Source: an uncultured delta proteobacterium (GTDB lineage: Bacteria; Myxococcota_A; Polyangia; Haliangiales; Haliangiaceae). From it: a stretch of DNA of 64,000 nucleotides. Below are positions 4,685-63,026 of this stretch, one piece after another. Where the stretch lies: the NCBI GenBank assembly GCA_963774445.1, contig CAVZFC010000035.1:197470-261469 (forward strand), given 5' to 3'. The position numbers and the translations under genes were made by a program. Under the pieces are notes generated by a model. The model was not told where the DNA came from and searched no databases. It worked only from the letters and a program-made list of their open reading frames with translations. The number at the start of each line of letters is the position of its first letter. Position 1 is the first letter of the stretch.

Positions 4685-4775
4685 ACTGGCTCCACGGCTG
4701 AAGCTCTTCGCCTCAATCCGAGGCTGCGAACGGCGCGAGCACGCTGGCGAGGTACTCGACCAGCCTACCAGACGC

Positions 4776-5870: not shown

Positions 5871-5997
5871 CGCACTCGGCACCAGAAGGACCCCATTGTA
5901 ACACGCCGGTCCCAATATCTCCCGCGACGGGACAGCAAAGAAATCAGTGGAAAAATCTGCTCACGACGGATGGTTCTTCCGCCGGCAACCCTGCGCG

Positions 5998-7844: not shown

Positions 7845-8033
7845 ATGCAAGGAACCCACGTAGTGCACGCGAGTCTGGGCGATCTCGTGACGGCAGCATT
7901 CGATGCGGCGGCCGAGCTGACGCAAAATCCGGAGTTGGCCGCAGAGCTGGCTACGTGGGTCGTAGCGCAGGCGATCGTCGAATCCGGGGAGTACGAGGTG
8001 GTCGACGATCTGGACGCCGGGCTGGTCCACTAG
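7845..8033 (+). CDS. small hypothetical protein (62 aa)
   Basis: A short ORF MQGTHVVHASLGDLV… with an AAGGGGG RBS-like run upstream; no homology recognised. Confidence 0.3.
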   Translation: MQGTHVVHASLGDLVTAAFDAAAELTQNPELAAELATWVVAQAIVESGEYEVVDDLDAGLVH

Positions 8034-8062
8034 CTGGCCCGGCGGGGACCCGGCGGCGGCGA

Positions 8063-9553
8063 TCAGGGCCGCGTGCTTTTTTGCCGCGCTGGGGAATCGT
8101 GCCTCACTCCCGCGGCGACGACCTCATCGACGAGCAGGTCCGCCTGTTCCAAATCGGCACGGGGGCCGATGTAGCACGGGCGAATGGCGAAGATGTTCCG
8201 CACGCGTGTGGTCGATGGGACGGCCAGGCCGCGGGCGCGGATGTCGGCGACGATCGCCTGGTTGAGGCGCTCGAGGGTGCCCTGGTCGCGGATGGCCGGC
8301 GGGTGGTAGCGGAAGCAACAAATCGACAGCACGGGGTCGGCCAGGAGCTCGAGATCCGGATGCGCGCGGACGCGCTCGGCGACGCGGCGGGCGCAGTCGA
8401 GGTGGCGGGCGACGCGGGCGCGCATGCCGTCGGCCCCGATCTCGGCCAGCGCGGCCCAGACGGCGACGCCGCGCGACGGCGACGAGTGCTCGAGGGTGTG
8501 GTCGTGCGACGACTCGCCGAAGTGATCGAAGGTGGAGCGCGGCTCGCGTTCGGCGCCGCCCTCGACGTAGGCCGCCGGCTCCAGTGCCATCGCGCGCTCG
8601 AGCAGGCCGCCGTCGCGGACGAAGCCGGCGCCGCAGCCGACGGGGACGGCCAGCCACTTGTGCGGGTCAACGGCGAACGAATCGATCTTCGTCAGGTCGC
8701 CGTAGCGGTCGCGCACGCGTGGGTCGAGGACGCCGAAGCCGCCGTAGGCGCCGTCAACGTGCAGCCAGACCCCGCGGTCGTGGGCAATCACTCGCATGGC
8801 GTCGATCGGATCGATGGTGCCGGTGTTGACGTCACCAGCCGAGGCGACGACCGCGATCGGCGTGCGCCCTGCGGTGAGGTCGGCGTCGATGGCGGAGGCC
8901 AGGGCGTCGGTGTCCAGGCCGCGGCGCGGGTCGACGGGAACCCGCACCAGCGCCCTTCGCCCCAGACCGAGCAGGCCGAGCGAGCGCAGCATGACGTGGT
9001 GGACGTGGGCGCCGGCGTAGAGGCGCGGCTCGTTCATCGCCGCCACGCCGTCGGCGCTGGCATCGATGCCGCGCTGCTCGCCGGCGTGCTGGCGGGCGGC
9101 CGCGAGGCCGAGGAAGTTGGCCATCATGCCGCCGCTGACCAGGGCGCCGGCGGTGTCGCCGAGGCCCAGCAGCGATCGCAGCCAGCGCAGCGCGACCTCC
9201 TCGAGCAGGTTGCCCGGCGTGAGCCACCACTTTTGCGCCGACGAGATCGCGGCGGCGAGCTGCGCGACGGCGGGGACCACCGGCGGCGCGGTGGTGACCC
9301 AGCCGGAGAAGCCGGGGTTGCCCAGGCGCAGGCCGTAGGGAACGACCCACTCGGAAAGCAGGCGCAGCACGGCGTCGGCGCCAATGCCCTGGTCGGGCAG
9401 TGGGGTGTTCAGGCGCGCGCGCCACGCGTCGCGTTCGCCTACCCGGTCGGGGCCCTGCTGGGCGTCGGTGAACGCTTCGAGGGCGGGGGCGACGGCGTCG
9501 AGCGCGGCGGCGAGGCCGGCGATGCGGGCGCGTTCGCGGTGGTCCTGGTCCAT
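8063..9553 (-). CDS. PLP-dependent group II decarboxylase (aromatic-L-amino-acid/glutamate decarboxylase family)
   Basis: Fold type I motifs, including the PLP-lysine signature SFAVDPHKWLAVP and AMRVIAHDRGVWLHVDGAYGG. The N-terminus overlaps the upstream lipase ORF by ~115 nt, so the true start may be internal. Confidence 0.85.
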   Translation of the reverse strand: MDQDHRERARIAGLAAALDAVAPALEAFTDAQQGPDRVGERDAWRARLNTPLPDQGIGADAVLRLLSEWVVPYGLRLGNPGFSGWVTTAPPVVPAVAQLAAAISSAQKWWLTPGNLLEEVALRWLRSLLGLGDTAGALVSGGMMANFLGLAAARQHAGEQRGIDASADGVAAMNEPRLYAGAHVHHVMLRSLGLLGLGRRALVRVPVDPRRGLDTDALASAIDADLTAGRTPIAVVASAGDVNTGTIDPIDAMRVIAHDRGVWLHVDGAYGGFGVLDPRVRDRYGDLTKIDSFAVDPHKWLAVPVGCGAGFVRDGGLLERAMALEPAAYVEGGAEREPRSTFDHFGESSHDHTLEHSSPSRGVAVWAALAEIGADGMRARVARHLDCARRVAERVRAHPDLELLADPVLSICCFRYHPPAIRDQGTLERLNQAIVADIRARGLAVPSTTRVRNIFAIRPCYIGPRADLEQADLLVDEVVAAGVRHDSPARQKSTRP

Positions 9554-10401
9554 CGCGGCATTCTATGCGTCCCTTCGCGCGCGCGCAGCCGGCGGGCAAT
9601 TTCTCGATAGATCGGGCGGGCGTCGAAGGCGCGCGACCAGCCGATCTGCGCCCAGTGGTCGGCGTCCAGCTCGGCGATCACCTCGCCCCAGCGCTGCGAC
9701 TGGACCGGCACGATGCCGTCGCTCGATCCGGCGCGGCGTGCCATCAGCCGGCGGCCGGCGCGGAGGAGCGGATTGGCGCCCTCGGTCGGCGTGCGGCCGA
9801 CGACGCTGGCGTAGTAGACGCGCGGATGATCGGGGACGTCGGCGTTGAAGAGCGCCATCCGCTCGGGCGTCAGCCACTCGCTGGCGTCGGACGAGATGCC
9901 GGCGCGGGCGATGGCTCGGCGCAGGCCGGCGACCGGCGGCAGGTTGCCCAGGCGCGCCAGCGGCGTGCCGTGATGGGGCGAGCCGATGGTCACCAGTGAG
10001 GCGACTCGCTCGGCCAGGCCGAGGTGGGCGATCGCGTAGCGCGCGTCGACGCCGCCCATGCTGTGGGCGACCAGGTGGACGCGCGGCGCCTCCAGCGCAT
10101 GGACCGCGCGGGCCAGGGCTGCGGCGCGCTCTTCCACCGACGCCGCCGGCGGCAGGGTGACCACGTGCACCGGCGCCCCGACCTCTTCCATCGCTTCGCC
10201 GACGCCGCGGAAGTAGCGGTGGCGTCGACCGAACAGCTCGATCTCACCCCAGCCGAGAAAGCCGTGCACGAGCACGATCGGGTAGGGAGGCGCAGTCGGG
10301 GCGTGGCGCCGGCGCCAGGCGAGGAGCGCCAGCGCGGCGACCGCCCCGGCGATGACGAGGGCGTAGAGGATCCACATGGCGGGAGCGGGAGGGAGCTTCA
10401 T
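9439..10401 (-). CDS. secreted alpha/beta-hydrolase lipase/esterase (triacylglycerol lipase family)
   Basis: N-terminal TM/signal anchor, oxyanion-hole motif VLVHGFLG, and the nucleophile elbow AHSMGG. ATG at 10401. The low-complexity Pro/Ser tail at the 3' end overlaps the decarboxylase. Confidence 0.8.
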   Translation of the reverse strand: MKLPPAPAMWILYALVIAGAVAALALLAWRRRHAPTAPPYPIVLVHGFLGWGEIELFGRRHRYFRGVGEAMEEVGAPVHVVTLPPAASVEERAAALARAVHALEAPRVHLVAHSMGGVDARYAIAHLGLAERVASLVTIGSPHHGTPLARLGNLPPVAGLRRAIARAGISSDASEWLTPERMALFNADVPDHPRVYYASVVGRTPTEGANPLLRAGRRLMARRAGSSDGIVPVQSQRWGEVIAELDADHWAQIGWSRAFDARPIYREIARRLRAREGTHRMPRWTRTTANAPASPASPPRSTPSPPPSKRSPTPSRAPTG

Positions 10402-10431
10402 GATGCCAGGCGGATCGCCTGAAGCGAACTC

Positions 10432-11151
10432 TCATCGCGCAAGCCCGCGGATGTTCACGGTCCGCGGCGCGCCAGCACGAAGTAGTGATCCAGCGGGCGC
10501 TCCTCTCTGAAGGCGGAGCCGATCGAGACGTGAGTCGAACACCCGGCGCATGAAGTCGCGGGTCCGGTCGTAGACGAACTGCTGCGCGCCGCGGCTGTTG
10601 GGCACCACCTTGGGCCAGCAGTCGGGGACCGGGCCGTCGGGCACCTGGAAGTAGTCGATGACGACGGCGCCGCGCGCCTCCCAGTGTGGCCGGCCGGCGG
10701 TGGGCACGGCGACGAAGAAACCGGGCCCGACCAGGCGCCGCGTCGGTCCCTCGTTGTAGCCGAACAGTCAATCGCTGCCGTCGTCGGGGCGGCTGAAGCG
10801 CTTCTGGAAGCGGCGCAGGGGCGGCGGCAGCGGCAGCGTGTTGAGGCCGTCGTGGATCACCTCGGTGAGCGGCGGCGCGCCGCCGACGAGCTGCTCCAGG
10901 TCGATCGGCGCCGACTCGGCGGCCTTTTCGTAGAGCATGCGCTGCCGCGCGCGAGAGAGGCCGCCGACCTCTTCCCAGCGGGCGGGTGCATCGAGTTGAT
11001 CGAGGAGCGCGGCGATGGCGTCGATGCGCGCGGCGGGGTCGTCGATGAGGGCGTCGAGCTGCACCGGGCGATGGTAGCCGCACGGCGCTGATGGCGTCAG
11101 GCGCGACTTCCGTTCATGCGGAAACCGCAGGACGGGGGATCCCTCTGCCAC
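10432..11151 (-). pseudogene. hypothetical protein gene interrupted by an in-frame TGA at 10768-10770 (pseudogene, sequencing error, or recoded)
   Basis: Two track ORFs (10768..11151 and 10432..10707) share a frame, and my reading finds no other stop between them. Both halves have protein-like composition (…RFQKRFSRPDDGSD*LFGYNEGPTRRLVGPGFFVAVPTAGRPHWEARGAVVIDYFQVPDGP…). The gene lies 30 bp upstream of the lipase. Confidence 0.4.
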
Positions 11152-11212: not shown

Positions 11213-11542
11213 ATGCAGAGCAGTGAGCCATTTGCCAGGATCGATCTCGACGAGTTGGACGAGTTGATCGAGGAGCCGGCCGAGCCGGTGCCTCCCCCCG
11301 GGCGGCGGCACCGTCGCGCGGGCACCGAGCCGGTCGAGAAGCTCGACCTCAACCGCGCCAGCGTCGAAGAGCTGGAGCTGTTGCCCGGCCTGGGCCCGCT
11401 TCGCGCCCGTCGCATCATCGCCTGGCGCAATCAGAGCGGACCGTTCGAGAGCCTCGAAGACCTGCGCTTCATCCGCGGCCTGGGTGAGCGTTCGGTCGCC
11501 GACCTCGCCCCCTACGTCATCGTCCGCGCGAACCGCCGCTGA
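11213..11542 (+). CDS. ComEA-like helix-hairpin-helix DNA-binding protein
   Basis: The C-terminus LDLNRASVEELELLPGLGPLRARRIIAWRNQSGPFESLEDLRFIRGLGERS matches the ComEA tandem HhH consensus. The N-terminus is acidic with no obvious TM segment. Confidence 0.75.
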   Translation: MQSSEPFARIDLDELDELIEEPAEPVPPPGRRHRRAGTEPVEKLDLNRASVEELELLPGLGPLRARRIIAWRNQSGPFESLEDLRFIRGLGERSVADLAPYVIVRANRR

Positions 11543-12986
11543 GCCGAACGCGGACCAGGTGGCCTTCGGGCACGAGCGTGAAGCTTCCGCCCGTCATTAG
11601 ACCGACCGGGTAGTAGAGGTAGACCGGCCGGCCGCTGGCGACCAGCTGGCCCAGGCGCTGGGCGGGCGGTCGCGTCAGCACGGTGACGTCCGGGCGGGCG
11701 CCGCGGACGATCTGGAAGTAGTCGTGGAAGACGGCGTTGCGCTGCCACTCGGGCGGCGTGGTGAAGTTGGCGATGACGGCGCCGGCGGGAAGCTCGCGGG
11801 TGAGCGCCTCGCCGTAGTCGCGTGCGGCGGTGTAGTCGGACAGATCGTTCTGCGCGAAGCTGCCGACCGCCATCGCCAGCGGCAGCGCGCCCAGCGCCAC
11901 GGCGACGCCGCGCGACAGGCCGGGGCGAAGTGCGTCGGCGATCTCTTGCACGCCGAAGCCGGCCAGGAGGCAGAGCGCCGCGGTGGTCGGCAAGAAGAAG
12001 ACCTCGACGTCGTGCACCTTGTAGTCGAAGAAGAAGTAGAGGTTGCCGGCGGCCATCGCCACCAGCGCGGCGCAGGCGAGCGGCCGGCGGCGCAACCCCA
12101 ACACGGCGCCGGCGGCGGCCAGCGCGATGCCGACCCAGCCGAGTTGCTCACCCAGGGAGGTGGCGATGCGCAGCGCGCGGCCACCGGTGGTCGGCACGTC
12201 GAACCAGTGCTTGTAGTTGCCGCCGGTGACGTGCCAGACGAGGCGCTGCCAGGTCTCCGGATCGCCAAAGTTGAGCGCCGGGTGCATCGACGCGCGCAGC
12301 GGCAGCCAGGCGAACACCAGCGCGGCGGCGGCGGCGGCGGCGCCCAGACAGGCGGCGGCCACCAGCAGGCGCCGGCGCAGTTGGTCGCGCGAGAACAAGC
12401 GCGCCAGCTCGCGCGGGCGGTCGACGCGCACGCCGGTGCCCAAGACCAGCAGGCCCAGCCCCACGCCGGTGGTTGCGATCGACATGTGCACGCCCATGCC
12501 GGCGCCGGCCAGCGCGCTGGCGCCGACGAGCAGGCGCGGCCGATTCTCGCGGACGCCGCGCGCGAGCAGCCACAGCACGGCGAAGAAGACCGCCAGGCCC
12601 GGGGTGTAGACCTCGGCGACCACCGCGTTGCCCCAGAAGACCGTGCCGGCGCCGAGGAGCGACGCCGAGAACGCGGCGGCCGGCCGGCGCAGCCCCAGGG
12701 CGCGCCCGGCGCCGAACGCCAGCCCCACGGCGACGGCGCCGAACACCGCGCTCACCGCGTTGACCGCGACGGCCGGGTCAACCGGCAGCCAGGTGAACAG
12801 GTGTGCGATCAGCGTGTAGAGCGGATAGCCGGGCGGGTGCGGGATGCCGATGGTCACCGCGGCAGCGACGTACTCGGCGCTGTCGTACCAGTAGACGGCG
12901 CGACACATCGTCGCCAGGTAGAGCGCGCCGAAGCTCGCCGCCAACCCGAGGCCTAGCCACAGGTCCGGACGGCGCGGTCGGTTCAC
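11517..12986 (-). CDS. DUF2723-family polytopic membrane protein (TMEM260-like, putative glycosyltransferase)
   Basis: YWYDSAEYVAAAVTIGIPHPPGYPLYTLIAHLF plus ~10 TM helices. The start is taken at GTG 12986, which overlaps the WS/DGAT stop (GTGA). The upstream ~134 codons of the track ORF are rejected as GC junk. Confidence 0.7.
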   Translation of the reverse strand: MNRPRRPDLWLGLGLAASFGALYLATMCRAVYWYDSAEYVAAAVTIGIPHPPGYPLYTLIAHLFTWLPVDPAVAVNAVSAVFGAVAVGLAFGAGRALGLRRPAAAFSASLLGAGTVFWGNAVVAEVYTPGLAVFFAVLWLLARGVRENRPRLLVGASALAGAGMGVHMSIATTGVGLGLLVLGTGVRVDRPRELARLFSRDQLRRRLLVAAACLGAAAAAAALVFAWLPLRASMHPALNFGDPETWQRLVWHVTGGNYKHWFDVPTTGGRALRIATSLGEQLGWVGIALAAAGAVLGLRRRPLACAALVAMAAGNLYFFFDYKVHDVEVFFLPTTAALCLLAGFGVQEIADALRPGLSRGVAVALGALPLAMAVGSFAQNDLSDYTAARDYGEALTRELPAGAVIANFTTPPEWQRNAVFHDYFQIVRGARPDVTVLTRPPAQRLGQLVASGRPVYLYYPVGLMTGGSFTLVPEGHLVRVRLSGGSRGR

Positions 12987-14422
12987 GCGATGCTCTCGGC
13001 CGGGTCGTCTCGAGCGGCCGCGGTTTCGAGCGCGGCGAACGACGCCTCGAGGTCGTCCGTGAAATCGTGAAGATCCGGCATCGACTGCCAGTCGCCGACG
13101 AGGCCCCAGCACAGGCTGCCGGCGTAGCTGAACAGCGCGATGCCCAGCGCCTGGTTCTCGATCAGCGGCACCAGCGGGAAGACTTCCTGGATCCGCGCGC
13201 CGAGAAGGTAGAGCGGGAACGGCGGACCGGGCACGTTGGTGATGACCACGTTGTAGGCGCGCTGGCGGCCGGCGGTGCGCAGCACCTGCTTGACCAGCGA
13301 TGTCGCGGTCAGATCGCTGATCTCCTCGATCAGCGCCGTGCTCTCGACCTGCCGCGACTGGGTCTTGAGGTGGGTCATCACCTCGCACACCCGCTCGAGG
13401 CAGAGCTGCGGGTCGGCCACCTCGATCGGCAGGTGGGCCAACATCATCGCCACCTTGTTGCCGCCGGAGCCGTGCTCACCCTGCTTGCGGATGCTGACCG
13501 GCACCAGCGCGCGGAAGTCGGTCAGGTTGCGCACGTCGGCGCCGCGGCGCTCGAGAAAGCGAGCCAGCGCCCCGGTGGCGGTGGCCAGGACCACGTCGTT
13601 GAGCTTGGCGCCCAGCGCGCGCTTGACCGCCTTGACGCGCTCGAGGTCGACGCGCCAGACGTCGAAGCGGCGGTGCGGTCCGATCTTGCGCGGGTTGATC
13701 GGCGTGGGCGACGCCGGGACGATGCCGGCGGCCAGCGAGTCGGCCAGGCCGATGGCGGTGTCCTTGGTCTCTTCCCACCAGCCGCGCGGATCGCGGGCCG
13801 CGGCGCGCAGGCGATCGAACACGGTGCGAGAGCCGCGCGCGCGGTGCTCGAGCTCGGCGGCCAAGAGCTCGGCCGACGACGGCGGCGGCGCCGGCTCCCA
13901 CGGCGCGGGCGCCGGTGGCAGCGTCTGATCCGGCGTGCCGCGCAGTAGCGCGGTCATGAGGTCGACGCCGGCGACGCCGTCGATCATCGCGTGGTGGATC
14001 TTGGAGATCAACGCGAAGCGGCCACCGGTCAGTCCCTCGACGATCCAGACCTCCCACAGCGGCCGCGTCCGATCGAGGCGATGCGAGAAGATGCGGCCGG
14101 CCAGCCGCTTGAGCACGCGCTCGTCACCCGGCCGCGGCAGCGCGGTGTGGCGCACGTGGTAGTTGATGTTGAAGTCCTCGTCGTCGACCCACACCGGGTG
14201 ATGCAGCCCGGGCACCCACGCCAGCTTCTGCCGGTAGCGCGGCAGCTTGGCGATGACCGCTTCGAAGTAGGGGGTCAGGGTCGCGAAGTCGATGCCGCCG
14301 TCGGCGGTGGCCAGTGGGCCGGACTCCAGTACCACCAGCGCGCCCACGTGCATGTGCGCGCGGTCGGTCTCGATCCCCAGAAAGGACGCATCCAACGCCG
14401 AAAGCCGCTGCCACCTCGCCAC
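12983..14422 (-). CDS. wax ester synthase/diacylglycerol acyltransferase (WS/DGAT) family
   Basis: Catalytic HHxxxDG motif (SKIHHAMIDGVAGVDL) and the N-terminal LSALDASFLGIETDRAHMHVG signature. GTG start at 14422; alternative ATG at 14548. The remainder of the 1248-aa track ORF is antisense junk. Confidence 0.85.
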   Translation of the reverse strand: MARWQRLSALDASFLGIETDRAHMHVGALVVLESGPLATADGGIDFATLTPYFEAVIAKLPRYRQKLAWVPGLHHPVWVDDEDFNINYHVRHTALPRPGDERVLKRLAGRIFSHRLDRTRPLWEVWIVEGLTGGRFALISKIHHAMIDGVAGVDLMTALLRGTPDQTLPPAPAPWEPAPPPSSAELLAAELEHRARGSRTVFDRLRAAARDPRGWWEETKDTAIGLADSLAAGIVPASPTPINPRKIGPHRRFDVWRVDLERVKAVKRALGAKLNDVVLATATGALARFLERRGADVRNLTDFRALVPVSIRKQGEHGSGGNKVAMMLAHLPIEVADPQLCLERVCEVMTHLKTQSRQVESTALIEEISDLTATSLVKQVLRTAGRQRAYNVVITNVPGPPFPLYLLGARIQEVFPLVPLIENQALGIALFSYAGSLCWGLVGDWQSMPDLHDFTDDLEASFAALETAAARDDPAESIA

Positions 14423-23045: not shown

Positions 23046-24110
23046 TCAGCGGTACAGGATCAGCAGGGCCGACAACAGATATTGCGGCTCGGTGTGCGAC
23101 CCGCCGTCGTAGTCGCAGCCGCCGGCGATGCAACCGGTGCACGGCGCGGCGTCGGGTCGGCAGCTGTTTTCGTACGCGGCGACGTCGTAGCCGATGGTGA
23201 CGTCGCCGCCGCCGCTGGGCACGCCGCCGGTCACCAGGGCGAACCAGTAGTGAACCGTGGCGCCCGGGCACCAGCCGGCGCGGGCAAGGGTGTAGGTGCC
23301 CTGCTGATCCGGGACAGCGGTGGTCGCGCAGTCGTCGCGCCAGATCGTCCGCGTGCTCGGGGCGCCGCCGACGTCGATGGTGTGCTCGCGGGAGCAGAAC
23401 TCGGCGCAGTTCTCGGCGTTGCCCTGACCGTGCCCGGTGACGATACCGCGCATCGCTACGGTGCCGGCTCCCGGCGGCACGGTAACGGTGGTCTGGCGCG
23501 CGGTCGGTTGCGCCGGGTCGCCGTAGACGACGCTCTCGGGTGACCAGATCGGGATCACCGCGTACGGCTCGGGCGACGGGATGCCGCCGGTGTAGTCCAG
23601 GGACAGGTCGACCAGCCAGCCGGTTCCCTGGTCGCTGCCGGGGCCGACCCACGTGTCGATGAAGAGGCGTACGGTCTGCTCGCCGCGGAGCAGCGGCGAG
23701 ACGTCGGTGACGTCGATCTGGAAGTCGCCGCCGACGCGATACGGGGTGACGAAGCGGGCGATCTCAATCTCTCGCTCGTCGGCGGTGCCCGCCGCCTCGA
23801 CGATGGAGACCCGTCCGACCCGGTCCCACCAGTCGCAGCCACCGGTCGGGCAGGAGAGTCCAATATGCAGCGTCACCATCTGGTACGCCAGGTTGACGTC
23901 GGGAAGGACCACGTCGGTGTCGACGGTGCGCCGATTGGGATCGCCGAAGTAGACGTGCTCGCCGGAGAAAATGTCAACCTGCCGGTCTGGCCCGATCGGG
24001 CCGCCGCCGCCGTCACCGCCGCTGCCGCTTCCGCCGCTGCCACAGGCCGACATGATCGCCAGGGTCGCGAACGCGACAGAGCGCGCGCAAGCTCGGGAGC
24101 AGAGGGTCAT
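23046..24110 (-). CDS. PNGase F-like peptide-N4-(N-acetyl-beta-glucosaminyl)asparagine amidase, lipoprotein
   Basis: IARFVTPYRVGGDFQIDVTDVSPLLRGEQTVRLFIDTW, CAEFCSREHTIDVG and ARAGWCPGATV align with PNGase F core blocks. Lipobox IMSAC. Confidence 0.75.
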   Translation of the reverse strand: MTLCSRACARSVAFATLAIMSACGSGGSGSGGDGGGGPIGPDRQVDIFSGEHVYFGDPNRRTVDTDVVLPDVNLAYQMVTLHIGLSCPTGGCDWWDRVGRVSIVEAAGTADEREIEIARFVTPYRVGGDFQIDVTDVSPLLRGEQTVRLFIDTWVGPGSDQGTGWLVDLSLDYTGGIPSPEPYAVIPIWSPESVVYGDPAQPTARQTTVTVPPGAGTVAMRGIVTGHGQGNAENCAEFCSREHTIDVGGAPSTRTIWRDDCATTAVPDQQGTYTLARAGWCPGATVHYWFALVTGGVPSGGGDVTIGYDVAAYENSCRPDAAPCTGCIAGGCDYDGGSHTEPQYLLSALLILYR

Positions 24111-24196
24111 CGAGCCCGGCACCTTGGCAGACGGCAGCCGGCGCGGTCAACGGCGCGGTCCGCCACAGGCTCTCGCGGGAGTTCCCTCACAGCGAG

Positions 24197-27035: not shown

Positions 27036-27440
27036 TCAGCGGCAGTAGGCGTCGTTGCCGCGAACGATGGCCTTGCACGCGTCGCTCGAGCAGTAGGCGT
27101 CGTTCTTGCGAACGTAGCCCTTGCAGTCGCTGGTCTTGCAGTAGGCGTCGTTCTTGCGAACGACCGCCTTGCAGTCGCCGGTCTTGCAGTAGGCGTCGTT
27201 GCCGCGCACGACCGCCTTGCAGTCGTCGGTGTCGCAGTAGGCGTCGTTGTTCCGGACCAGCGCCTTGCAGTCGCCGGTCTTGCAGTAGGCGTCATTGCCG
27301 CGCACCAGCGCCTTGCAGTCGTCGCCCGACCAGTGGCGATAGCCGGCCTTCAGCGGTCCGACCTTGCTCTCGGCGCGAATCAGGCCAACGGCGGCGGTGA
27401 GGATGATGGCGGCGGTGAGTACGGATGCGGCTGTGCGCAC
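27036..27440 (-). CDS. small secreted protein made of six tandem 16-aa double-cysteine repeats (DCKA[LV]VRxNDAYCxxx)
   Basis: Signal peptide VRTAASVLTAAIILTAAVGLIRA, then 6 near-identical repeats encoded by a 48-bp DNA tandem repeat. Start uncertain (27440 GTG or 27503). Confidence 0.6.
   Translation of the reverse strand: MRTAASVLTAAIILTAAVGLIRAESKVGPLKAGYRHWSGDDCKALVRGNDAYCKTGDCKALVRNNDAYCDTDDCKAVVRGNDAYCKTGDCKAVVRKNDAYCKTSDCKGYVRKNDAYCSSDACKAIVRGNDAYCR
27043..27330 (-). repeat. six copies of a 48-bp coding tandem repeat
   Basis: The repeated unit gcagtaggcgtcgtt[gc]…cttgcagtcg… is visible directly in the sequence. Confidence 0.8.
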
Positions 27441-27542
27441 GGGTAGGCCCTTTCCAGACGGTGCTCCGAATCTAATGGAAGGGTGGCCCGACCGCCACTG
27501 CAAATGCCCTCCCGGGGGGCGTTATGCGCTAAAAAGGGCGCC

Positions 27543-30985: not shown

Positions 30986-33016
30986 TCAGCCTTCCGTGGG
31001 CTCGTCGGGTGCATCCCCCAGGCCGAGCAGGGCGCGGATGTCAACGCCGCCATTGGTCCGGCCGGGGGCGAGCGGCAGGTGTGCGAGCAGACGCGCGGCG
31101 ACATCGGCGACGCTGTCGCCGCCGAGGATCGCCAGCGGCGACAGGTTGCGCGACAGCTCGCCGGCGAGCTTCTGGCCGGCCACGGTTCGCAACGTGGCGA
31201 CCAGCTCGGGGGCGATCGCTTCCATCTCGGTGCGAAAGGCAGCAGCGCGGGCTTCCAGGCGGCGGCGCTCGACCTCGCTATCTTCGGCGGCCAGAGCGAG
31301 GCGGGTTCGCTCGAGGCGATCCAGGGCGTCGGCCTCGGCGGCGGCGCGGCCCACGCGCTCCAGCCGGTCAACCTCGACGCGGGTGCCGGCCTCGGCCAGC
31401 GCCAGCTCGCGGGCGCGCGCCTCCAGCGCGGCCCGGGCGGTGTCGGTCTCGGCGCGGGCCTCGAGGATCGCCCGCTCGACCCGCTGCTCGAGCTCCTGAT
31501 CGCCCAGTCGCAGCTCGGCCTGCTTGCGCGTGATGTCCGAGACAATCGCCACCCGCTGGGCGTCGCACAGGAGGTCGTCGACATCGTCGTCGAGGATGCG
31601 CACGTCGAGTACCTCGACGTCGTAGACCCACAGGCCGTTTTCGGCGAAGTGGCGGCCCTCACGCTCGCCGCCGTCGGTGCGCGCACCGAGGACGGCCGTG
31701 CGCAGGACGTCGGTCGACCGGGCGTGGAACGACTCGATCGGCGTCGCCCGCGCGGCGGCGCGAATGATCGACGCCAGGTGGTCGCACAGCAGGCCGACGT
31801 AGTCCTTGACGTTGAACCAGCGCTCGCTGTCGCCGGCGAACGACACCCGGTACGACAGGTCGACCTCCAGCCCGACGTGGTCGGCGGTCTTGACGGCGAC
31901 GCGGTCCGAGACCTTGTTGCCCTGGATGCGCAAGAAACAGGTGGGCAAGAGCGTGTCGTCCGACTTGGGTCGTCCCGTCGACAGCGTCAGCGTTTCGAGC
32001 TCCTCGTCGTAGGCGAGCACGCGCGTGGTCGGCCCGATCACCACCTCGCGGCGATCGCGTGCGGTGACCATGACCGCGGTGCTGGGCGGCACGTAGATGG
32101 TGGGCGCGCGATCGTCGCCCGCGGCGGCGACCTGGTAGTGCGCGCGGGTCGCCGGATCCAGCCGCCGCCGCACCAGCTCCTCGCGAGTCGGGTTGACCAG
32201 GTAGGTGCGCGGCCCGGCGACGGTGGCGATCCGCCCGCTGGCGCGATCGCGGACGTAGATCGCCTCGCGCTCGGCCAGCGCGATCGGCTCGACGACGCCG
32301 ACCACCTCGAGCGCCTCGGTGGGAAAGAAGTAGCCCTCGCACCCGCGGAGGAACAGATCCTGTCCCGGCTGGTAGTGGCCCGGCGGCACCTGGTCGCCAT
32401 CGGCGGCATCGAACGGCGCGCTGACCCGCAGGTGCAAACCGCCGCGGCCATCCAGGCGCCAGGCCTGGCGCTCGTAGCGGCCGCCGGCGTTGGGCACCAC
32501 CTCGCGCCCGCTGGGCGGGACGTAGAACGACACGTCGCTGCCGCGGATGATGCTCTCGGTGCCGATCGGCGTGCCCGAGCCGTCGTCGTCGTAGACGCGA
32601 ACCACCAGGTACTCGTCGTCGCGAAGCTGGTGGCCGTCGATCACCTGCGCGCGCTGTCCCGGCCACAGGGGAAAGCGGGCGGGGCCGGGCACGACGATCG
32701 TCCGCCCCATGCGCAGCGGCACCGCCGAGCAGGCGCCCTTGACCGGTGTCGCGTCGGCGTCGGCGGCCGGGTTCTCGAGGATGATGTACTGCGACGAGCT
32801 GGCCTCGACGAACGGGTGCACGCCGAGGCCGGCCTCGTCGCCGCGCACCGGGGCGAACCGACCGTCGCGCAGGATCACCATGCGCTCGGTGTTCGACAGG
32901 CTGATCTTGGTAGGCCCGACGTAAAGGACGATGTCGCCCTTGGTCAGGTCTTGCACGTAGGCGTACTCGTTGGGCGCGACCAGGATGTCGCGTTCGCGGA
33001 CTTCACGTTCACTCAT
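30986..33016 (-). CDS. major vault protein (MVP) homolog
   Basis: Multiple MVP repeat domains ([54 protein letters not shown]). The shoulder domain matches [11 protein letters not shown]…[19 protein letters not shown] and [24 protein letters not shown]…LRTAVLG. A C-terminal coiled-coil cap-helix is also present. Confidence 0.85.
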   Translation of the reverse strand: [676 protein letters not shown]

Positions 33017-33176
33017 GCGGTGTCTCCTCCGGCTGTTCACCGGAAGGAAGAGCAACGCGCGTGCCGCGGGCAAGTGGGCGAAAGCGCGTCGGGCGCTTGC
33101 GCCGCTGCGGCGCAGCTGCGCCGCCCCGAAGCAGCGCCGGCGGTTTTCTTGCCGCCTGCGCGTGCCTGTACCTACA

Positions 33177-33638: not shown

Positions 33639-35205
33639 TCAATCCTGGCCGGCGAACGCGCCCTGCTCGACATCGGTCGGCGTGCCGTCCGGCTGCCAGT
33701 AGTGCCAGGTGCCGACGCGGGCGCCGTCGCGGTAGTCACCCTGGGCGGCGAGCTGGCCGTTGGGGTGCCACTCGCGGTACGGGCCGTTCTCCTTCTGTCG
33801 GACGAAGACCCCTTCGGCCCAGCGCGAGCCGTCGTCGCGGTAGGCGGTGAAGCGGGCCTCGGCGCCGCGCTTCGAGTAGGTCGTCTCGCGCACCAGGCGG
33901 CCGTCTTCGTACGTCTTCCACCGTCCGTCCTTGGCCCCGGCGACGTAGCTGCCCTCCGCGGCGACCGCGCCGTCGGGCTGGTAGTGCACCCAGTGGCCGG
34001 TCATCTGGCCGCCGGCGAAGGCGCCGCGCGACTTGACCGAGCCGCTGGCGTACCACTCGGTCCACGGGCCGTGCTTGGCGCCACGGCGCTCGCACCACTG
34101 GGCGCGGCTGTCGGGCGGCGGCGCGCCGTGAAGCGAGGTACCGGCGGGGCAGGGGCCGTGATTCTCCGCGGTGGCGCCTGTGCGGCTGCAGCCGGTGGCG
34201 AGCAGCGCGATCAGGCCGAGGAGCAGCCACCACGAGGCGGGGCCGCCCGTGCTGCAACCGCCGCCACCGCACGGGCGGTAGCAGCTGCAGTTGGCTGCAC
34301 AGACGCCGCCACCGCAGTCTGCGTCGGTCGTGCAGCTGCCAGCAAAGCTGCCCGGCTCCATGCCGGCCAGGCCGCAGCGGCCGTCGTCGGCGCAGGCCGT
34401 GCCGGCCGGGCAATCGCCGTCGGTGGTGCAGGTCGAGTCGCACAGCGAGTCGCCTGCGCCGAGTGGCGCTCGCGCTCCGGGCGCCGCGACGCCGTCGATC
34501 GCGCGGAGCGTGTCCTGGATCCAGGCGCGGTCGACGTCGAGCCGCGCGTTGACGCTGGTGAGCGCACAGTCGGGATCTCCCGAGACGGTGACGCCGGCGA
34601 TCGTGTCGCCGGCTGCGCTCGCGCGCAGCACCGGGCCGCCGCTGTCGCCCTCGCAGCTGTTGGCCGGCGCCGGGGTGGCGACGAACGTCAGCGGCCTCAG
34701 CTCGGACACCTGCGAGCTGCCCTGCCGCCGCGTGCCAGTGACGTCCGTGTCGTCGACGCCGAAGCCGACGACGCGCACGCTCTCGCCGACGAAGGTGCTG
34801 TCCAGCGCGCGATCGTCGATGGGCAGCGGCGCGACGCCGACGACCGGCTGGCGCAGCGACAGGATCGCCAGGTCGTGATCGGCCGCGGCGTGGGCCGGAT
34901 GCGGCCACGCCTGCTCGACCTCGATCCGATCGCCGTCGCCGCCTACCTGCGACCCGACGAATAGCTGGAGGGTTCCGGGCGGCGCCAGGTCGAACGCAGT
35001 GTGCGGCGGTCAGGACCGCGCGCGGGCCGATCAGGGCGCCGCTGCACAGCACCTGCTCGCTATCGCCACACGAGAGCGGCGGCGCGATCAGCGCGACCGC
35101 CGCCGCATCCGCGGTCGCCGGCTCACCGCCGACGACGGCGGCGCCGACGACGCCTCGCGATGGCTGGCGCTGGCACGCCGACGCCATGGCCACGAGCGCG
35201 GTCAT
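33639..35205 (-). CDS. trypsin-like S1 protease (split across two frames near 34995) with a Cys-rich extension, a MYXO-CTERM-like hydrophobic segment and C-terminal MORN repeats
   Basis: LTAAHC is in track ORF 33736..35427. The Asp region (HDLAILSL) and GDSGGP are in the frame of ORF 33639..34778. The single reading frame continues through CGGGGCSTGGPASWWLLLGLIALLATGCS into MORN repeats (GPWTEWYASG…, GPYREWHPNGQ…). Confidence 0.6.
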
Positions 35206-41285: not shown

Positions 41286-41939
41286 ATGCTACGTGCGGGT
41301 GTCGCCATTGCTCTCTCCTGCCTCCTCGGCTCGTCGGCGTGGGCGCACACGCGTCTCACCTATCCGGCCCCGCGCAGCCCCAGCGACGGGCTCAAGACCG
41401 GCCCGTGCGGCGGCGTGCCCCCCGGCACGCCCAACCTGATCGCGGTCGGCTCGACCATCACCGTGGTGTGGAACGAGACCATCGATCACCCCGGCTACTT
41501 CCGCATCGCCTGGTCGCCGCCCGGTGACCAGGGCTTCGAGGAGAACATCCTCCTCGACCAGATCCAGGATCAGGTCTGCACCGCGCCGCCGTGCGAGTAC
41601 CGGGCCGACGTGACCCTGCCGGACCAGCCGTGCACCGGCTGCGCACTGCAGATCATCCAGTTCATGGGCACGGCCGCGCCGTACTCGCCGTACTTCTCCT
41701 GCGCCGACGTCGACCTGGTCGACCCCTCCGAGATTCCCGACGCCGGGCCGCCGATGAGCGATGCCGGCGCCAGTGGTAGCGACCCCGACGCGGGGGTCGC
41801 GGGCGACGGCGACGCGGGCATCGGCGGCGGCGCCGCAACCGGCGTCAACGGTGGATGCGCGGCGGGCGGGCAGGGCGGCAGTGGCTTCCTCGCGCTGCTC
41901 GGTCTGGCGCTGGTCGTGGCGCGCCGTCGCCGCTCCTAG
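41286..41939 (+). CDS. secreted His1 (LPMO-like/copper-binding candidate) protein with a MYXO-CTERM sorting tail
   Basis: Signal peptide cleavage is predicted at SAWA|HTRLTYPAPRS, leaving an N-terminal His. A second His lies in TIDHPGYFRIAW. The C-terminus GGCAAGGQGGSGFLALLGLALVVARRRRS is a MYXO-CTERM tail. Confidence 0.65.
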   Translation: MLRAGVAIALSCLLGSSAWAHTRLTYPAPRSPSDGLKTGPCGGVPPGTPNLIAVGSTITVVWNETIDHPGYFRIAWSPPGDQGFEENILLDQIQDQVCTAPPCEYRADVTLPDQPCTGCALQIIQFMGTAAPYSPYFSCADVDLVDPSEIPDAGPPMSDAGASGSDPDAGVAGDGDAGIGGGAATGVNGGCAAGGQGGSGFLALLGLALVVARRRRS

Positions 41940-50083: not shown

Positions 50084-51673
50084 ATGGAGGCGCGCGGCGC
50101 GCCAGATGAGCAGTCGCCGGATTTTCGGCCGCGGCTGCGACGCTGGTTGGAGTGGGCCGATGCGCGCGTCGGTCGGCCGGCGCACGGTTACTGGCTGACG
50201 CGGTTTGCGCTGCTGCGCGCGCTCGGCTTCATCTACTTCGTCGCCTTCCTGTCGGCGACCCAGCAGCTGGTGCCGCTGATCGGCGCCCACGGCATCACCC
50301 CGGCCGGCGACTACCTGGCCAGGCTGTCGGCCGACGGATACGGCTCGGGCGATGTGCCGACGCTGTTCTGGATCACCTCGTCGGACACGGCGCTGCTGGT
50401 GGTCGCGTGGCTGGGCGCAGCGCTGTCGCTGGCGGTCTTGTGCGGCGTGACCAACGCGCCGGTCATGGCGGCGCTGTGGATCCTCTACAGTTCGATCGTC
50501 AACGTCGGCCAGGTCTGGTACGGCTACGGCTGGGAGCTGATGCTGCTGGAGGCCGGCTTCCTGGCGATCTTCCTCTGTCCGCTGCGCGGCCTCCACCCGC
50601 TGGCGCCGCGGATGCCGCCGTCGCGGGTGGTGATCTGGCTCTACCGCTGGATGCTGTTCCGGGTGATGTTCGGCGCCGGTTTGATCAAGCTGCGCGGCGA
50701 CGACTGCTGGCGCCAGCTCACCTGTCTCGACTACCACTACGAGACCCAGCCGATCCCCAGCCCGCTGAGCTGGTACTGGCACCACCTGCCCGACTGGGTG
50801 CACCGGGTCGAGGTCGCCGGCAACCACGTGCTCGAGCTGATCGTGCCGTGGCTGATCTTCGGGCCGCGGCGCGTGCGCCACGTGGCCGCGCTGATCCTCA
50901 TCGGCTTTCAGGTGATGTTGATCCTCAGCGGCAACCTGTCGTTCCTCAACTGGCTGACCATCGCCATCTGCCTGGCCTGTTTCGACGACGGCGCCCTCGG
51001 CCGGCTCTTTGCCCGGCGCGCGCGAGGGCTGGTCGCCAGGCTGCACCGGCGGGTGCGCCCGACCGACGCCCAGAGGCTGGTGGTCCTGGGCCTGGCCGCA
51101 GTCATCGCGGTGCTCAGCATCGAGCCCGCACTCAACCTGGTTTCCAGCAGCCAGCGGATGAACGCCGCCTACGACCGGTTCAGCATCGTCAACACCTACG
51201 GCGCCTTCGGCTCGGTGGGGGATGCGCGCTACCAGGCGGTCATCCAGGGCACCGACGACCCGTCGCCCGACGGCGCCCACTGGAAGAGCTACGTCCTGCC
51301 GTGCCAGCCGGGGCCGCTCGATCGCCGGCCGTGCATGATCTCGCCGTACCAGTTGCGTCTCGACTGGCAGCTGTGGTTCGCCGGTCCGTCAACCCCGTCG
51401 CGCAACCCGTGGCTGGTCAGCCTGGTCTATCAGCTCCTCGGCGGTGACGACGACGTGACCACGCTGTTTGCCGTCGACCCGTTCCCCGATCGGCCGCCGC
51501 GCTTCGTCCGCGTGATGCGCTACCGCTATCGCTTCACCGATCCGGGCGAGCCCGGCTGGTGGACGCGCGAGCCGGCCGGCGAGATCCTTGGCCCGGTGTC
51601 GGCGGACGACCCGGGGCTGCTCGAGTTCCTCCGGCGTCACGGGTTTCTGGTCGCGCGTCAACGTGATATGTGA
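50084..51673 (+). CDS. lipase maturation factor (LMF1/DUF1222) family polytopic membrane protein
   Basis: Near-identity to conserved LMF blocks: YWLTRFALLRALGFIYFVAFL, MAALWILYSSIVNVGQVWYGYGWELMLLEAGFLAIFLCPL, and FGAGLIKLRGDDCWRQLTCLDYHYETQPIPSPL. Confidence 0.85.
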   Translation: MEARGAPDEQSPDFRPRLRRWLEWADARVGRPAHGYWLTRFALLRALGFIYFVAFLSATQQLVPLIGAHGITPAGDYLARLSADGYGSGDVPTLFWITSSDTALLVVAWLGAALSLAVLCGVTNAPVMAALWILYSSIVNVGQVWYGYGWELMLLEAGFLAIFLCPLRGLHPLAPRMPPSRVVIWLYRWMLFRVMFGAGLIKLRGDDCWRQLTCLDYHYETQPIPSPLSWYWHHLPDWVHRVEVAGNHVLELIVPWLIFGPRRVRHVAALILIGFQVMLILSGNLSFLNWLTIAICLACFDDGALGRLFARRARGLVARLHRRVRPTDAQRLVVLGLAAVIAVLSIEPALNLVSSSQRMNAAYDRFSIVNTYGAFGSVGDARYQAVIQGTDDPSPDGAHWKSYVLPCQPGPLDRRPCMISPYQLRLDWQLWFAGPSTPSRNPWLVSLVYQLLGGDDDVTTLFAVDPFPDRPPRFVRVMRYRYRFTDPGEPGWWTREPAGEILGPVSADDPGLLEFLRRHGFLVARQRDM

Positions 51674-62834: not shown

Positions 62835-63026
62835 ACCGTTTCTCCTTGCCCGGCGTTGGGGGCGGCCGAGCGGCCGCGAGCCTAACATGACCGCCATACC
62901 CGCGGGTTGGGGCCGCAAGCCGGTAGAATCACTGCCCGTGGGCCCGGGACCAATCGTGAAGGCCGCGCTGATCACTGCCGCAACCGGGGCTGTCGTGGTC
63001 CGGCGGCTAGATGTCGGCGCCGCCGC

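What the first reader, a model, noticed from the sequence alone, without database searches (positions are those of the whole stretch)
30986..33016. Full-length bacterial homolog of the eukaryotic major vault protein
The 677-aa product aligns block by block with eukaryotic MVP. It has several N-terminal MVP repeat domains, the shoulder domain (e.g. [24 protein letters not shown] versus human [44 protein letters not shown] versus [20 protein letters not shown]), and a C-terminal coiled-coil cap-helix that drives vault assembly in eukaryotes. Vaults are regarded as eukaryotic organelles, and bacterial MVP homologs are rare and uncharacterised. It sits between a GH1 lipoprotein gene and a divergent PilZ gene, with no TEP1/PARP4-like partners visible.
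Basis: partly seen in the sequence, partly recalled or inferred. Interest (0 to 1): 0.8.

Follow-up and report, generated by a model that had tools for sequence, protein, structure and literature searches.

The report
Short bacterial major-vault-protein homologue (Myxococcota)
This gene really does encode a bacterial relative of the protein that builds eukaryotic "vault" particles, but it is a shortened six-repeat version from a large family first reported in 2013, and nobody has yet shown what any bacterial member does.

Summary
Window 30986..33016 (minus strand) encodes a 676-aa protein. It matches Pfam MVP_shoulder (E=7.8e-30) and human/rat major vault protein (MVP) in the PDB (E=5e-31; profile 1e-54). 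An AlphaFold model hits vault structures first (Foldseek E~1e-30).

- Architecture is β-repeats, shoulder and a 121-residue helix, but with about six repeats rather than nine.
- No cap-ring similarity is detectable, and only 3 of 12 human NAD+-pocket residues are kept.
- One quoted "shoulder" motif lies in repeat R8.
- Bacterial homologues are not rare: at least 600 close relatives (mostly Myxococcota) and 1,601 clusters at 50% identity.
- Homologues in Myxococcota and other bacteria were already reported (Daly 2013; Sokolskyi 2019).

No partner emerges. No neighbour is conserved across 64 loci. The 40 window genes scanned carry no TROVE, PARP, vWA or TIR domain, and the window has no vault RNA.

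Most likely it self-assembles into a hollow dome or cage, like MVP and the related SPFH cage proteins. This is inferred, not shown.

In passing, longer relatives are common in huge phages.

Verdict: a new member of a known, uncharacterised kind; moderate interest.

The parts
30986..33016 (-). Coding sequence of the MVP homologue, 676 aa plus stop codon
   Evidence: ORF. Start supported by the ribosome-binding site and by the family alignment. MVP homology shown.
33024..33030 (-). Shine-Dalgarno-like GGAGGAG, 7 nt upstream of the ATG
   Evidence: Read directly from the sequence.
32846..32989 (-). Repeat A (aa 10-57), the position of MVP R1 and the most conserved module of the protein
   Evidence: AF2 β-module. 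Mean column conservation is 0.90, with 27 of 48 residues invariant across 32 homologues. The motif [21 protein letters not shown]...VGPTK.SLSNTER is also recognisable in distant long forms.
31931..32845 (-). Repeats B-F (aa 58-362), five further β-repeat modules. C-F align to human R6-R9. The low-confidence stretch aa 128-184 lies in repeat C.
   Evidence: AF2 secondary structure. HMM alignment of query 148-366 to human 292-519. Profile hit to murine R1-R7 (3gf5, E=3e-6). Foldseek hit to 3gng R1-R7, E=1e-13. Internal repeat homology A-E 77% and C-D 64%. Vault_3 and Vault_4 are just sub-threshold.
31589..31930 (-). Shoulder domain (aa 363-476), an SPFH-like α/β fold. Includes the conserved GRPK (aa 348-351, at the repeat F/shoulder junction) and TADH (aa 377-380) motifs shared with human MVP.
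   Evidence: Pfam PF11978, E=7.8e-30, residues 367-476. 35 of 114 residues are invariant. Foldseek hits to SPFH cages.
31226..31588 (-). Cap-helix equivalent (aa 477-597): one uninterrupted 121-residue Ala/Glu/Arg-rich helix
   Evidence: AF2 helix H477-597. Aligned to human about 647-777. It is the least conserved structured part (0.58) and has no significant 3.5-3.6-residue periodicity.
31079..31225 (-). Conserved C-terminal helical segment (aa 598-646) with the invariant motif SPLAILGG-S...LL..LP; proposed to close the cap
   Evidence: Conservation 0.77, 16 of 49 invariant. Three short helices in AF2 at low confidence. No sequence match to MVP or to anything else in the PDB.
30989..31078 (-). 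Variable, probably disordered C-terminal tail (aa 647-676)
   Evidence: pLDDT below 50; conservation 0.37.

Best explanation
The gene encodes a chromosomal, vertically inherited, short (six-repeat) member of the prokaryotic MVP-like family that is widespread in Myxococcota. Shown: homology to MVP, the module order (six β-repeats, SPFH-like shoulder, 121-residue helix, conserved C-terminal segment), a soluble acidic protein with no membrane anchor, and no genetically linked partner. Inferred: many copies pack side by side. The helices form a parallel barrel that tapers into a cap closed by the conserved C-terminal segment. The shoulder and repeats form a thin wall, giving a hollow dome. Two domes may join through the very conserved N-terminal repeat A, as vault halves join through R1, to make a closed cytoplasmic cage shorter than the eukaryotic vault. 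The cage would enclose or sequester macromolecular cargo that is not encoded next to it. It probably does not use the NAD+/ADP-ribose pocket of human MVP, nor a PARP4/TEP1-type interior. My confidence that it is an MVP homologue is about 0.97. My confidence that it forms a cage or dome is about 0.6. The cargo and physiological role are unknown.
For: Homology. Fold: the AF2 model (mean pLDDT 70.7) matches human, rat and rabbit vault chains first (E 1e-27 to 1e-30) and then R1-R7 crystal structures (1e-13). After that it matches only SPFH cage formers (flotillin, prohibitin, HflK/C, stomatin, erlin) for the shoulder plus helix. From my own knowledge, every solved protein with this shoulder-plus-long-helix architecture forms a closed dome. 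Strong purifying selection: 54-92% identity across Haliangiales, Polyangiales and Myxococcaceae/Archangiaceae genomes. The highest conservation lies in repeat A and in the C-terminal segment, which are the two ends that form the waist and the cap in vaults. There is no transmembrane segment (maximum Kyte-Doolittle 19-residue mean 1.32) and the protein is acidic. It is a stand-alone gene: no conserved neighbour in 64 chromosomal loci or in 32 phage-type loci (30 IMG/VR contigs plus L067 and L069). This fits a self-sufficient shell, as MVP alone builds vault shells (10.64898/2026.05.01.722283, MVP-only reconstitution). Published multimer models of Asgard and Borg homologues give cup- or barrel-like assemblies (PMC12962969; 10.1101/2024.11.05.622173).
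Against: No assembly was computed or observed here; only a monomer model of moderate confidence exists (pTM 0.46; aa 128-184 and 600-676 are poorly predicted). The helix shows no significant heptad or 3.6-residue periodicity in hydrophobicity or conservation and is the least conserved structured region. Three repeats are missing relative to MVP, the cap-ring is not detectably conserved, and only 3 of 12 mapped NAD+-pocket residues are retained (with PMC12280208). Geometry and function may therefore differ from vaults. As far as I could find, no vault-like particles have been reported in myxobacterial cells.
Confidence: 0.6

Rival explanations
1. It forms a membrane-docked half-dome that works like SPFH proteins (HflK/C, flotillin, stomatin). 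A single cup would sit on the cytoplasmic membrane and fence off or regulate a membrane protein, rather than forming a free two-halved vault.
For: The shoulder is an SPFH-type fold, and the next-best structural matches after MVP are all membrane-attached SPFH cages. Eukaryotic vaults have now been seen attached to membranes in situ (PMC13100048). The highly conserved repeat A could be a docking surface instead of a half-to-half interface.
Against: There is no transmembrane or hydrophobic N-terminal segment, whereas SPFH cages are anchored by one. No NfeD, FtsH, protease or channel gene is conserved nearby. Pfam assigns the domain to MVP_shoulder and not to Band 7. Six soluble β-repeats occupy the place of the anchor.
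Confidence: 0.2
2. It is a domesticated shell gene from a mobile element (huge phage or Borg-like element). It would act in phage-host conflict, for example by trapping phage components or nucleotides, rather than serving as a housekeeping compartment.
For: Relatives of 803-1058 aa are encoded on at least 30 IMG/VR viral contigs, many of 100-500 kb. They also occur in GenBank 'uncultured phage' records of 462 and 735 kb and in phage-like contexts, one next to a NADAR gene. Borgs carry MVP-like genes (10.1101/2024.11.05.622173). Vault components are linked to NAD+ depletion immunity (10.64898/2026.05.01.722283).
Against: The window copy sits in ordinary chromosome, with GC uniform at about 0.70, GC3 of 0.91, and no phage, integrase or defence genes among the 40 genes scanned. 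There are no PADLOC or PHROGs hits. Identity to phage copies is only 27-37%, against 54-92% within Myxococcota, and falls with taxonomic distance, which indicates long vertical inheritance. The NAD+ pocket is not conserved.
Confidence: 0.1
3. It does not assemble. It acts as a soluble nucleotide-binding or sequestering protein, or as a TolA-like protein, as proposed by Sokolskyi (2019).
For: That preprint predicted GMP and CMP pockets in the shoulder region of bacterial homologues and noted TolA similarity in the helix (10.1101/872010). Human MVP does bind NAD+ and ADP-ribose near the shoulder (PMC12280208).
Against: The mapped human pocket is largely replaced: R507 to S, P508 to D, H509 to D, R511 to L, D521 to N, F522 to K, W545 to V, P565 to K and K573 to D. 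Only R504, K506 and L517 are kept. In human MVP the pocket is formed between two neighbouring subunits, so it presupposes assembly. No TolA family appears in Pfam at E<=1, and the helix is Ala/Glu/Arg-rich, so TolA similarity is probably compositional.
Confidence: 0.07
4. It is a recent transfer from a eukaryote, or eukaryotic contamination of the assembly.
For: Horizontal transfer from eukaryotes was suggested for cyanobacterial MVP homologues at about 54-56% identity (PMC3762200).
Against: Identity to human MVP is only 29%. A profile of the family scores 420-1085 bits on prokaryotic and phage relatives but 189 bits on human MVP. Composition is native to the host. The locus is syntenic in a related genome and the family is present across Myxococcota orders.
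Confidence: 0.01

Closest known systems
Eukaryotic major vault protein (human Q14764; rat vault PDB 4V60/4HL8; human 9BW5, 11DR)
   Same: Same module order: N-terminal β-repeats, SPFH-like shoulder, very long helix. The sequence match runs from R6 to the cap-helix (29% identity, E about 1e-31 to 1e-54). Shared motifs include GRPK and TADH. It is the best structural match.
   Different: About six repeats instead of nine, with no equivalents of three mid-array repeats. By position these are R3-R5, the PARP4 MINT-binding platform in human MVP (PMC12280208). The helix is shorter, 121 residues against about 155 (from memory). The C-terminal region is not detectably related. The NAD+/ADP-ribose pocket is mostly not conserved. 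No TEP1, PARP4 or vault RNA is encoded nearby. Assembly is unproven.
Previously reported bacterial MVP homologues: Corallococcus coralloides H8MNI3, Plesiocystis pacifica A6FXM1 and A6FXE2, Enhygromyxa salina A0A0C2D5V5, Melittangium boletus (PMC3762200; 10.1101/872010; 10.1101/2023.11.10.566534)
   Same: Same phylum (Myxococcota), about 25% identity to eukaryotic MVP as reported there, the same predicted MVP fold, and uncharacterised. The window protein belongs to this known group. Its nearest database relative is 92% identical, from an uncultured deltaproteobacterial genome bin (MAG).
   Different: I could not retrieve those UniProt entries here, so identity and repeat number relative to them were not measured. 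The earlier papers did not describe the six-repeat architecture, the absence of conserved neighbours, or the true size of the family.
Long-form prokaryotic, huge-phage and Borg MVP-like proteins (800-1060 aa)
   Same: Clear homologues at 27-40% identity and 310-530 bits. They share the N-terminal repeat A motif, the shoulder and the helix.
   Different: They carry 150-250 extra residues inside the repeat array, for example a block duplication in P0124. Many lie on phage-like or huge-phage contigs, whereas the window copy is chromosomal.
SPFH/Band-7 cage proteins (HflK/C, flotillin, prohibitin, stomatin, erlin, QmcA)
   Same: The shoulder plus long helix superimposes on them (Foldseek E 1e-7 to 1e-4). 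All of them build closed domes from a parallel helix barrel, which is the mechanistic template for my model.
   Different: They have a membrane anchor and no β-repeat array. This protein has no hydrophobic segment and has six β-repeats. Pfam Band 7 does not match.
Asgard archaeal MVP homologues (PMC12962969)
   Same: Also shortened (five repeats), with a predicted shoulder and cap-helix, and modelled as closed cups.
   Different: A different lineage. That paper places half of the Asgard sequences with eukaryotic MVPs. The relationship to the myxobacterial clade was not tested here.

Membership tests
Major vault protein (MVP) family | MVP shoulder domain (Pfam PF11978) | tested here: met
   E=7.8e-30, 103.8 bits against a cut-off of 25; residues 367-476 cover model positions 3-118 of 118.
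Major vault protein (MVP) family | MVP-type β-repeat domains recognised by sequence (Pfam PF01505 Vault, PF17795 Vault_3, PF17796 Vault_4) | tested here: inconclusive
   Vault_3 scores 28.1 bits against a cut-off of 28.8. Vault_4 scores 20.9 against 22.9. PF01505 is not reported at E<=1. The family profile does hit murine R1-R7 (3gf5, E=3e-6). The N-terminal 148 aa alone hit nothing.
Major vault protein (MVP) family | MVP-type β-repeat fold (structure) | tested here: met
   Foldseek to R1-R7 crystal structures 3gng, 3gf5 and 3gnf at E about 1e-13, and to full vault chains at E about 1e-30. The model pLDDT is 70-93 for most repeats but below 50 for aa 128-184.
Major vault protein (MVP) family | Nine repeats (R1-R9) before the shoulder | tested here: not met
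   The shoulder begins at aa 367 against 520 in human MVP. There are six β-modules in the model. Query 148-366 aligns to human 292-519, which is R6-R9, leaving room for only two more repeats.
Major vault protein (MVP) family | Long cap-helix after the shoulder | tested here: met
   A single helix spans aa 477-597 and aligns to human about 647-777. It is shorter than in MVP and shows no significant heptad signal.
Major vault protein (MVP) family | Cap-ring / C-terminal closure homologous to MVP 803-845 | tested here: inconclusive
   A profile of aa 586-660 finds no MVP chain in the PDB (best E=1.5, to unrelated proteins). A weak pattern resemblance (A..P..L...G...L) rests only on my memory of the human sequence.
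Major vault protein (MVP) family | NAD+/ADP-ribose pocket between neighbouring shoulder regions (human R504, K506, R507, P508, H509, R511, L517, D521, F522, W545, P565, K573; PMC12280208) | tested here: not met
   Mapping through the alignments shows only R504=R349, K506=K351 and L517=L362 retained. The basic residues R507, H509, R511 and K573 become S, D, L and D. R437 could not be mapped.
Major vault protein (MVP) family | Self-assembly into a 39-fold half-vault and a 78-mer barrel | not testable with these tools
   Only monomer prediction was available, so no multimer modelling or experiment was done.
Vault ribonucleoprotein (whole particle) | Partners TEP1 (TROVE/NACHT/WD40), PARP4 and vault RNA | tested here: not met
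   No TROVE, PARP, vWA, TIR, NADAR or macro domain appears in the 40 window genes scanned. No Rfam family reaches its gathering score in 64 kb. No neighbour is conserved in 64 loci. Partners elsewhere in the genome could not be excluded.
SPFH / Band-7 family | Band 7 domain recognised by sequence (PF01145) | tested here: not met
   Not reported at E<=1; only MVP_shoulder matched. Structural similarity is present.
SPFH / Band-7 family | N-terminal membrane anchor (transmembrane helix or hairpin) | tested here: not met
   The maximum 19-residue Kyte-Doolittle mean is 1.32, found inside a β-repeat. The N-terminus is charged ([10 protein letters not shown]).
Known anti-phage defence systems (PADLOC) / phage protein families (PHROGs) | Match to any catalogued model | tested here: not met
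   No hits for the window protein or for two long-form relatives.

The most novel reading that the evidence does not exclude
The six-repeat protein builds a genuine prokaryotic vault-like nanocompartment that is vertically inherited across Myxococcota. The vault lineage as a whole would then be primarily a prokaryotic and huge-phage shell family with a variable repeat number, and the eukaryotic nine-repeat vault would be one offshoot of it. Myxobacteria, and huge phages, would then offer a genetically tractable route to the 40-year-old question of what vault shells are for.
Probability: 0.45. Interest if true: 0.75.

Novelty: new member of a known kind. Interest (0 to 1): 0.45.

Why it matters
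The function of vaults has been unresolved since 1986, and their prokaryotic roots are debated. This locus adds no new kind of protein, but the analysis sharpens the picture in four ways. First, bacterial MVP relatives are abundant, under strong constraint, and genetically solitary. Second, the myxobacterial form is a compact six-repeat version. By position it lacks the mid-array repeats R3-R5, which form the PARP4-binding platform in human MVP, and it lacks most of the human NAD+ pocket, so the shell itself is the conserved unit. Third, the two most conserved parts are the two ends, which in vaults make the waist and the cap. Fourth, many relatives sit in huge phages. If assembly is confirmed, a cultivable myxobacterium with a single-gene knockout could make vault-shell function directly testable. 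A shorter self-assembling cage could also be useful as an engineering scaffold.

Tried and rejected
1. Conserved gene neighbourhood. I clustered all ORFs within 8 kb either side of the gene in 64 chromosomal loci. Only Ser/Thr kinases recur (23 of 64), at variable distance and strand, and these are abundant throughout Myxococcota. GH1 and PilZ adjacency is shared only with the 92%-identical relative. The same analysis on 32 phage-type loci found nothing.

2. Vault partners. Pfam scans of 40 window genes and an Rfam scan found none.

3. Coiled-coil periodicity. There is no significant 3.4-3.8-residue signal in hydrophobicity or conservation (permutation p 0.13-0.94). I therefore do not call the helix a classical coiled coil.

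4. Cap-ring homology. A profile of the C-terminal segment found nothing.

5. R1/R2 homology by single-sequence search found nothing. It rests on the profile and the fold.

6. NAD+ pocket conservation was tested and mostly not met.

7. NCBIfam, PHROGs and PADLOC gave no hits.

8. The TolA relationship proposed in 10.1101/872010 has no Pfam support and looks compositional.

9. Eukaryote-to-bacterium transfer or contamination was rejected on identity, bit scores, composition and synteny.

11. No formal phylogeny was built, because no maximum-likelihood tool or full eukaryotic sequence set was at hand. Relationships are argued from bit scores and identities only.
Full report
**Observation**

The window has about 70% G+C throughout. 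On the minus strand an ORF runs from 33073 (first TTG) to 30986. The real start is the ATG at 33016. It is preceded by GGAGGAG with a 7-nt spacer, and 32 homologues align from exactly this methionine. Third-position G+C is 0.91, like the neighbouring genes.

**Is it an MVP homologue?**

Yes, beyond reasonable doubt.
- Pfam MVP_shoulder matches end to end at E=7.8e-30.
- phmmer against PDB sequences returns only major vault proteins. Human MVP 11dr_A scores E=5.4e-31, with query 145-611 aligned to MVP 291-770.
- A profile of the family raises this to 1.2e-54 and adds the murine R1-R7 fragment at 3e-6.
- BLASTP against the human segment 292-777, transcribed, gives 29% identity over 441 residues.
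- An AlphaFold2 model built on 32 homologues has mean pLDDT 70.7 and pTM 0.46.
- Foldseek matches that model to human, rabbit and rat vault chains at E 1e-27 to 1e-30, then to R1-R7 crystal structures at 1e-13. After those it matches only the SPFH cage proteins (flotillin, prohibitin, HflK/C, stomatin, erlin), at 1e-7 to 1e-4, for the shoulder plus helix.

However, the EAIYVRD... motif aligns to human 383-408, which is repeat R8 and not the shoulder.

**Anatomy**

The model and alignments give the following layout.
- Six β-rich modules: A (aa 10-57), B (58-127), C (128-185, low confidence), D (186-243), E (244-302) and F (303-362).
- An α/β shoulder at aa 363-476.
- One uninterrupted helix at aa 477-597.
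- Three short helices at aa 603-645, followed by a disordered tail.

Modules C-F align to human R6-R9. Profile-profile comparison detects homology between some modules: A-E at 77% probability and C-D at 64%. The shoulder starts 153 residues earlier than in human MVP, so the protein has about six repeats and not nine.

By position, the missing ones correspond to mid-array repeats. In human MVP, R3-R5 form the docking platform for the PARP4 MINT domain (PMC12280208). The repeats are mutually homologous, so this one-to-one assignment is positional and not proven.

The Pfam repeat models Vault_3 and Vault_4 fall just below their cut-offs, and PF01505 does not match. The N-terminal 148 residues alone find nothing in the PDB by sequence. 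The protein is acidic (84 K+R against 109 D+E) and has no hydrophobic segment.

**Conservation pattern**

Across 32 homologues at 54-92% identity, the most conserved module is repeat A (mean 0.90, 27 of 48 residues invariant). The shoulder (0.76) and the C-terminal helical segment (0.77, motif SPLAILGG-S...LL..LP) are also strongly conserved. The long helix is the least conserved structured part, at 0.58.

The helix is Ala/Glu/Arg-rich and shows no significant 3.5-3.6-residue periodicity. A profile of the C-terminal segment finds no MVP chain, so cap-ring homology is not demonstrated.

**The human nucleotide pocket**

I mapped the residues listed in PMC12280208 through the alignments. The numbering checks exactly (G503-R504-P505-K506 and so on).
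- Retained: R504 (R349), K506 (K351) and L517 (L362).
- Replaced: R507 to S, P508 to D, H509 to D, R511 to L, D521 to N, F522 to K, W545 to V, P565 to K and K573 to D.

The basic diphosphate-binding character is therefore lost, although the GRPK loop and the TADH motif are conserved from bacteria to human. NAD+ or ADP-ribose binding of the human type is unlikely.

**Relatives and distribution**

A word-seeded search returned 600 clusters at 90% identity (capped), all 645-760 aa. The best is 92% identical. Names, where given, are Haliangium, Kofleriaceae, Labilithrix, Archangium and Myxococcota.

A scan of species-representative genomes found 64 loci. Identity falls with taxonomic distance.
- The closest uncultured deltaproteobacterial genome bin (MAG): 92%.
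- Haliangium/Kofleriaceae: 61-68%.
- Polyangiales/Polyangiaceae: 54-62%.
- Myxococcaceae/Archangiaceae: 53-56%.

A few bins labelled Planctomycetota, Acidobacteriota, Clostridia or Methanosarcinales also appear.

An exhaustive profile search of 1.84 billion representatives found 1,601 clusters at 50% identity with E<=1e-3, of which 702 have E<=1e-30. The short form collapses into a handful of clusters, and most representatives are 800-950 aa. All of the top 150 score 420-1085 bits, against 189 bits for human MVP with the same profile. The long forms carry 150-250 extra residues inside the repeat array, and P0124 shows a block duplication.

The family is therefore neither rare nor eukaryote-derived in this lineage.

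**Prior knowledge**

- Daly et al. 2013 (PMC3762200) listed Corallococcus, Plesiocystis, Microscilla, Saprospira, Flexibacter and Herpetosiphon homologues at about 25% identity to eukaryotic MVP.
- Sokolskyi 2019 (10.1101/872010) analysed Enhygromyxa and others.
- A 2023 preprint reported two gut-phage MVPs.
- A 2026 paper reported five-repeat Asgard homologues modelled as closed cups.
- Borg elements carry MVP-like genes.

I found no experimental study of any bacterial homologue.

**Genomic context**

The 92% relative is syntenic: PilZ-like gene, MVP, GH1, trypsin-MORN and M3 peptidase. A 62% relative has entirely different neighbours.

Clustering all flanking ORFs of the 64 loci shows no conserved neighbour. 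Only Ser/Thr kinases recur, at variable positions. GH1 and PilZ adjacency is confined to the closest relative.

There is no terminator-like site in the 54-nt gap before GH1, so co-transcription is possible here, but it is lineage-specific.

Pfam scans of 40 window genes show ordinary myxobacterial chromosome and no TROVE, PARP, vWA, TIR, NADAR or macro domains. Rfam finds nothing. PADLOC, PHROGs and NCBIfam have no model for the protein.

**Mechanism**

The following is shown: homology to MVP, the module order, solubility, strong constraint, and genetic autonomy.

The rest is inferred. Every solved protein with a shoulder-type domain followed by a very long helix (MVP and the SPFH cages) forms a closed dome, in which the helices make a parallel barrel and the C-termini close the apex. 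This is my own knowledge of those structures, consistent with the list.

The two most conserved parts here are the two ends of the elongated monomer. In vaults, these ends form the waist (R1) and the cap. I therefore consider a self-assembling hollow dome, possibly pairing through repeat A into a shortened vault-like cage, the most likely mode of action (about 0.6).

The rivals are as follows.
- A membrane-docked single dome (about 0.2). Argued against by the lack of any anchor.
- A domesticated mobile-element shell acting in phage conflict (about 0.1). Argued against by the chromosomal context and the vertical identity pattern.
- A non-assembling nucleotide binder (about 0.07). Argued against by the degraded pocket.
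- Recent transfer from a eukaryote (about 0.01).

The cargo and physiological role remain unknown.

**Seen in passing**

Long-form relatives lie in runs of small co-directional unannotated genes on contigs of 138 and 470 kb. One has a NADAR gene immediately upstream. At least 30 IMG/VR viral contigs, many of 100-500 kb, encode 803-1058-aa homologues. Three GenBank 'uncultured phage' records of 462 and 735 kb also match. This suggests that MVP-like shells are a recurrent feature of huge phages, well beyond the two gut phages so far described.

**Verdict**

The finding is real and correctly recognised, but it is a new member of an already reported, abundant and experimentally uncharacterised family. 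It is a shortened variant, not a full-length counterpart of eukaryotic MVP. Interest is moderate (0.45). Its value lies in making vault-shell function testable in bacteria, not in novelty.

Noticed in passing
L067 8001-10442 (contig Ga0309773_1000015, 469,617 bp); L069 8001-10532; L070-L099; GenBank LR756500, LR756501 and LR756503: Long-form MVP homologues (803-1058 aa, 27-37% identical to the window protein) are encoded on many huge-phage-like contigs. At least 30 IMG/VR contigs carry one, many of 100-500 kb, with G+C from 25% to 62%. Three GenBank 'uncultured phage' records of 462 and 735 kb also match. Only two gut-phage MVPs appear in the literature I could search. No neighbour is conserved among these phage loci.
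   Followed up: partly
L067 7090-7926 (upstream of the MVP homologue at 8001-10442): In one 470-kb phage-like contig the gene directly upstream of the MVP homologue is a NADAR (ADP-ribose-processing) domain protein, and DUF5662 lies downstream. This is suggestive given the NAD+/ADP-ribose link of human vaults, but it was seen in one contig only (L068 is a second assembly of the same locus).
   Followed up: no
L065 8001-10283 (MAG labelled Methanosarcinales, contig CAZYIM010000027.1); also L012, L024, L029, L030, L050, L051, L054, L023: Homologues occur in genome bins labelled Methanosarcinales (38% identity; possibly a Borg-type element, since Borgs are reported to carry MVP-like genes), Planctomycetota, Gemmataceae, Acidobacteriota/Blastocatellia and Clostridia (46-57%). 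I did not determine whether these reflect mis-binning or real transfers.
   Followed up: no
window 27036-27503 (-): A 155-aa predicted secreted protein made of about six tandem Cys-rich repeats of roughly 19 residues (consensus ...VRxNDAYCKTxDCKA...). It has no significant Pfam family, only a sub-threshold YdjO match.
   Followed up: no
window 50084-51673 (+), 11517-13388 (-), 23046-24122 (-), 41286-41939 (+), 60732-62975 (-): Several families best known from eukaryotes sit in the same 64 kb: lipase maturation factor LMF1 (E=7e-70), a TMEM260-like protein O-mannosyltransferase, PNGase F, a BIM1-like copper acquisition factor, and an M13 neprilysin-type peptidase. The window also holds at least three Ser/Thr kinases.
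   Followed up: no
window 1-6000, especially 1231-4775: The first 6 kb has about 65% G+C, against 70-74% elsewhere. The stretch 1231-4775 has no ORF that passes my codon-bias filter. I did not examine what lies there.
   Followed up: no
window 33639-34778 (-), possibly extending upstream to about 35427: A trypsin-like protease fused to MORN-variant repeats lies next to the PilZ gene. The ORF boundaries are ambiguous, and the syntenic gene in L001 is 458 aa.
   Followed up: no
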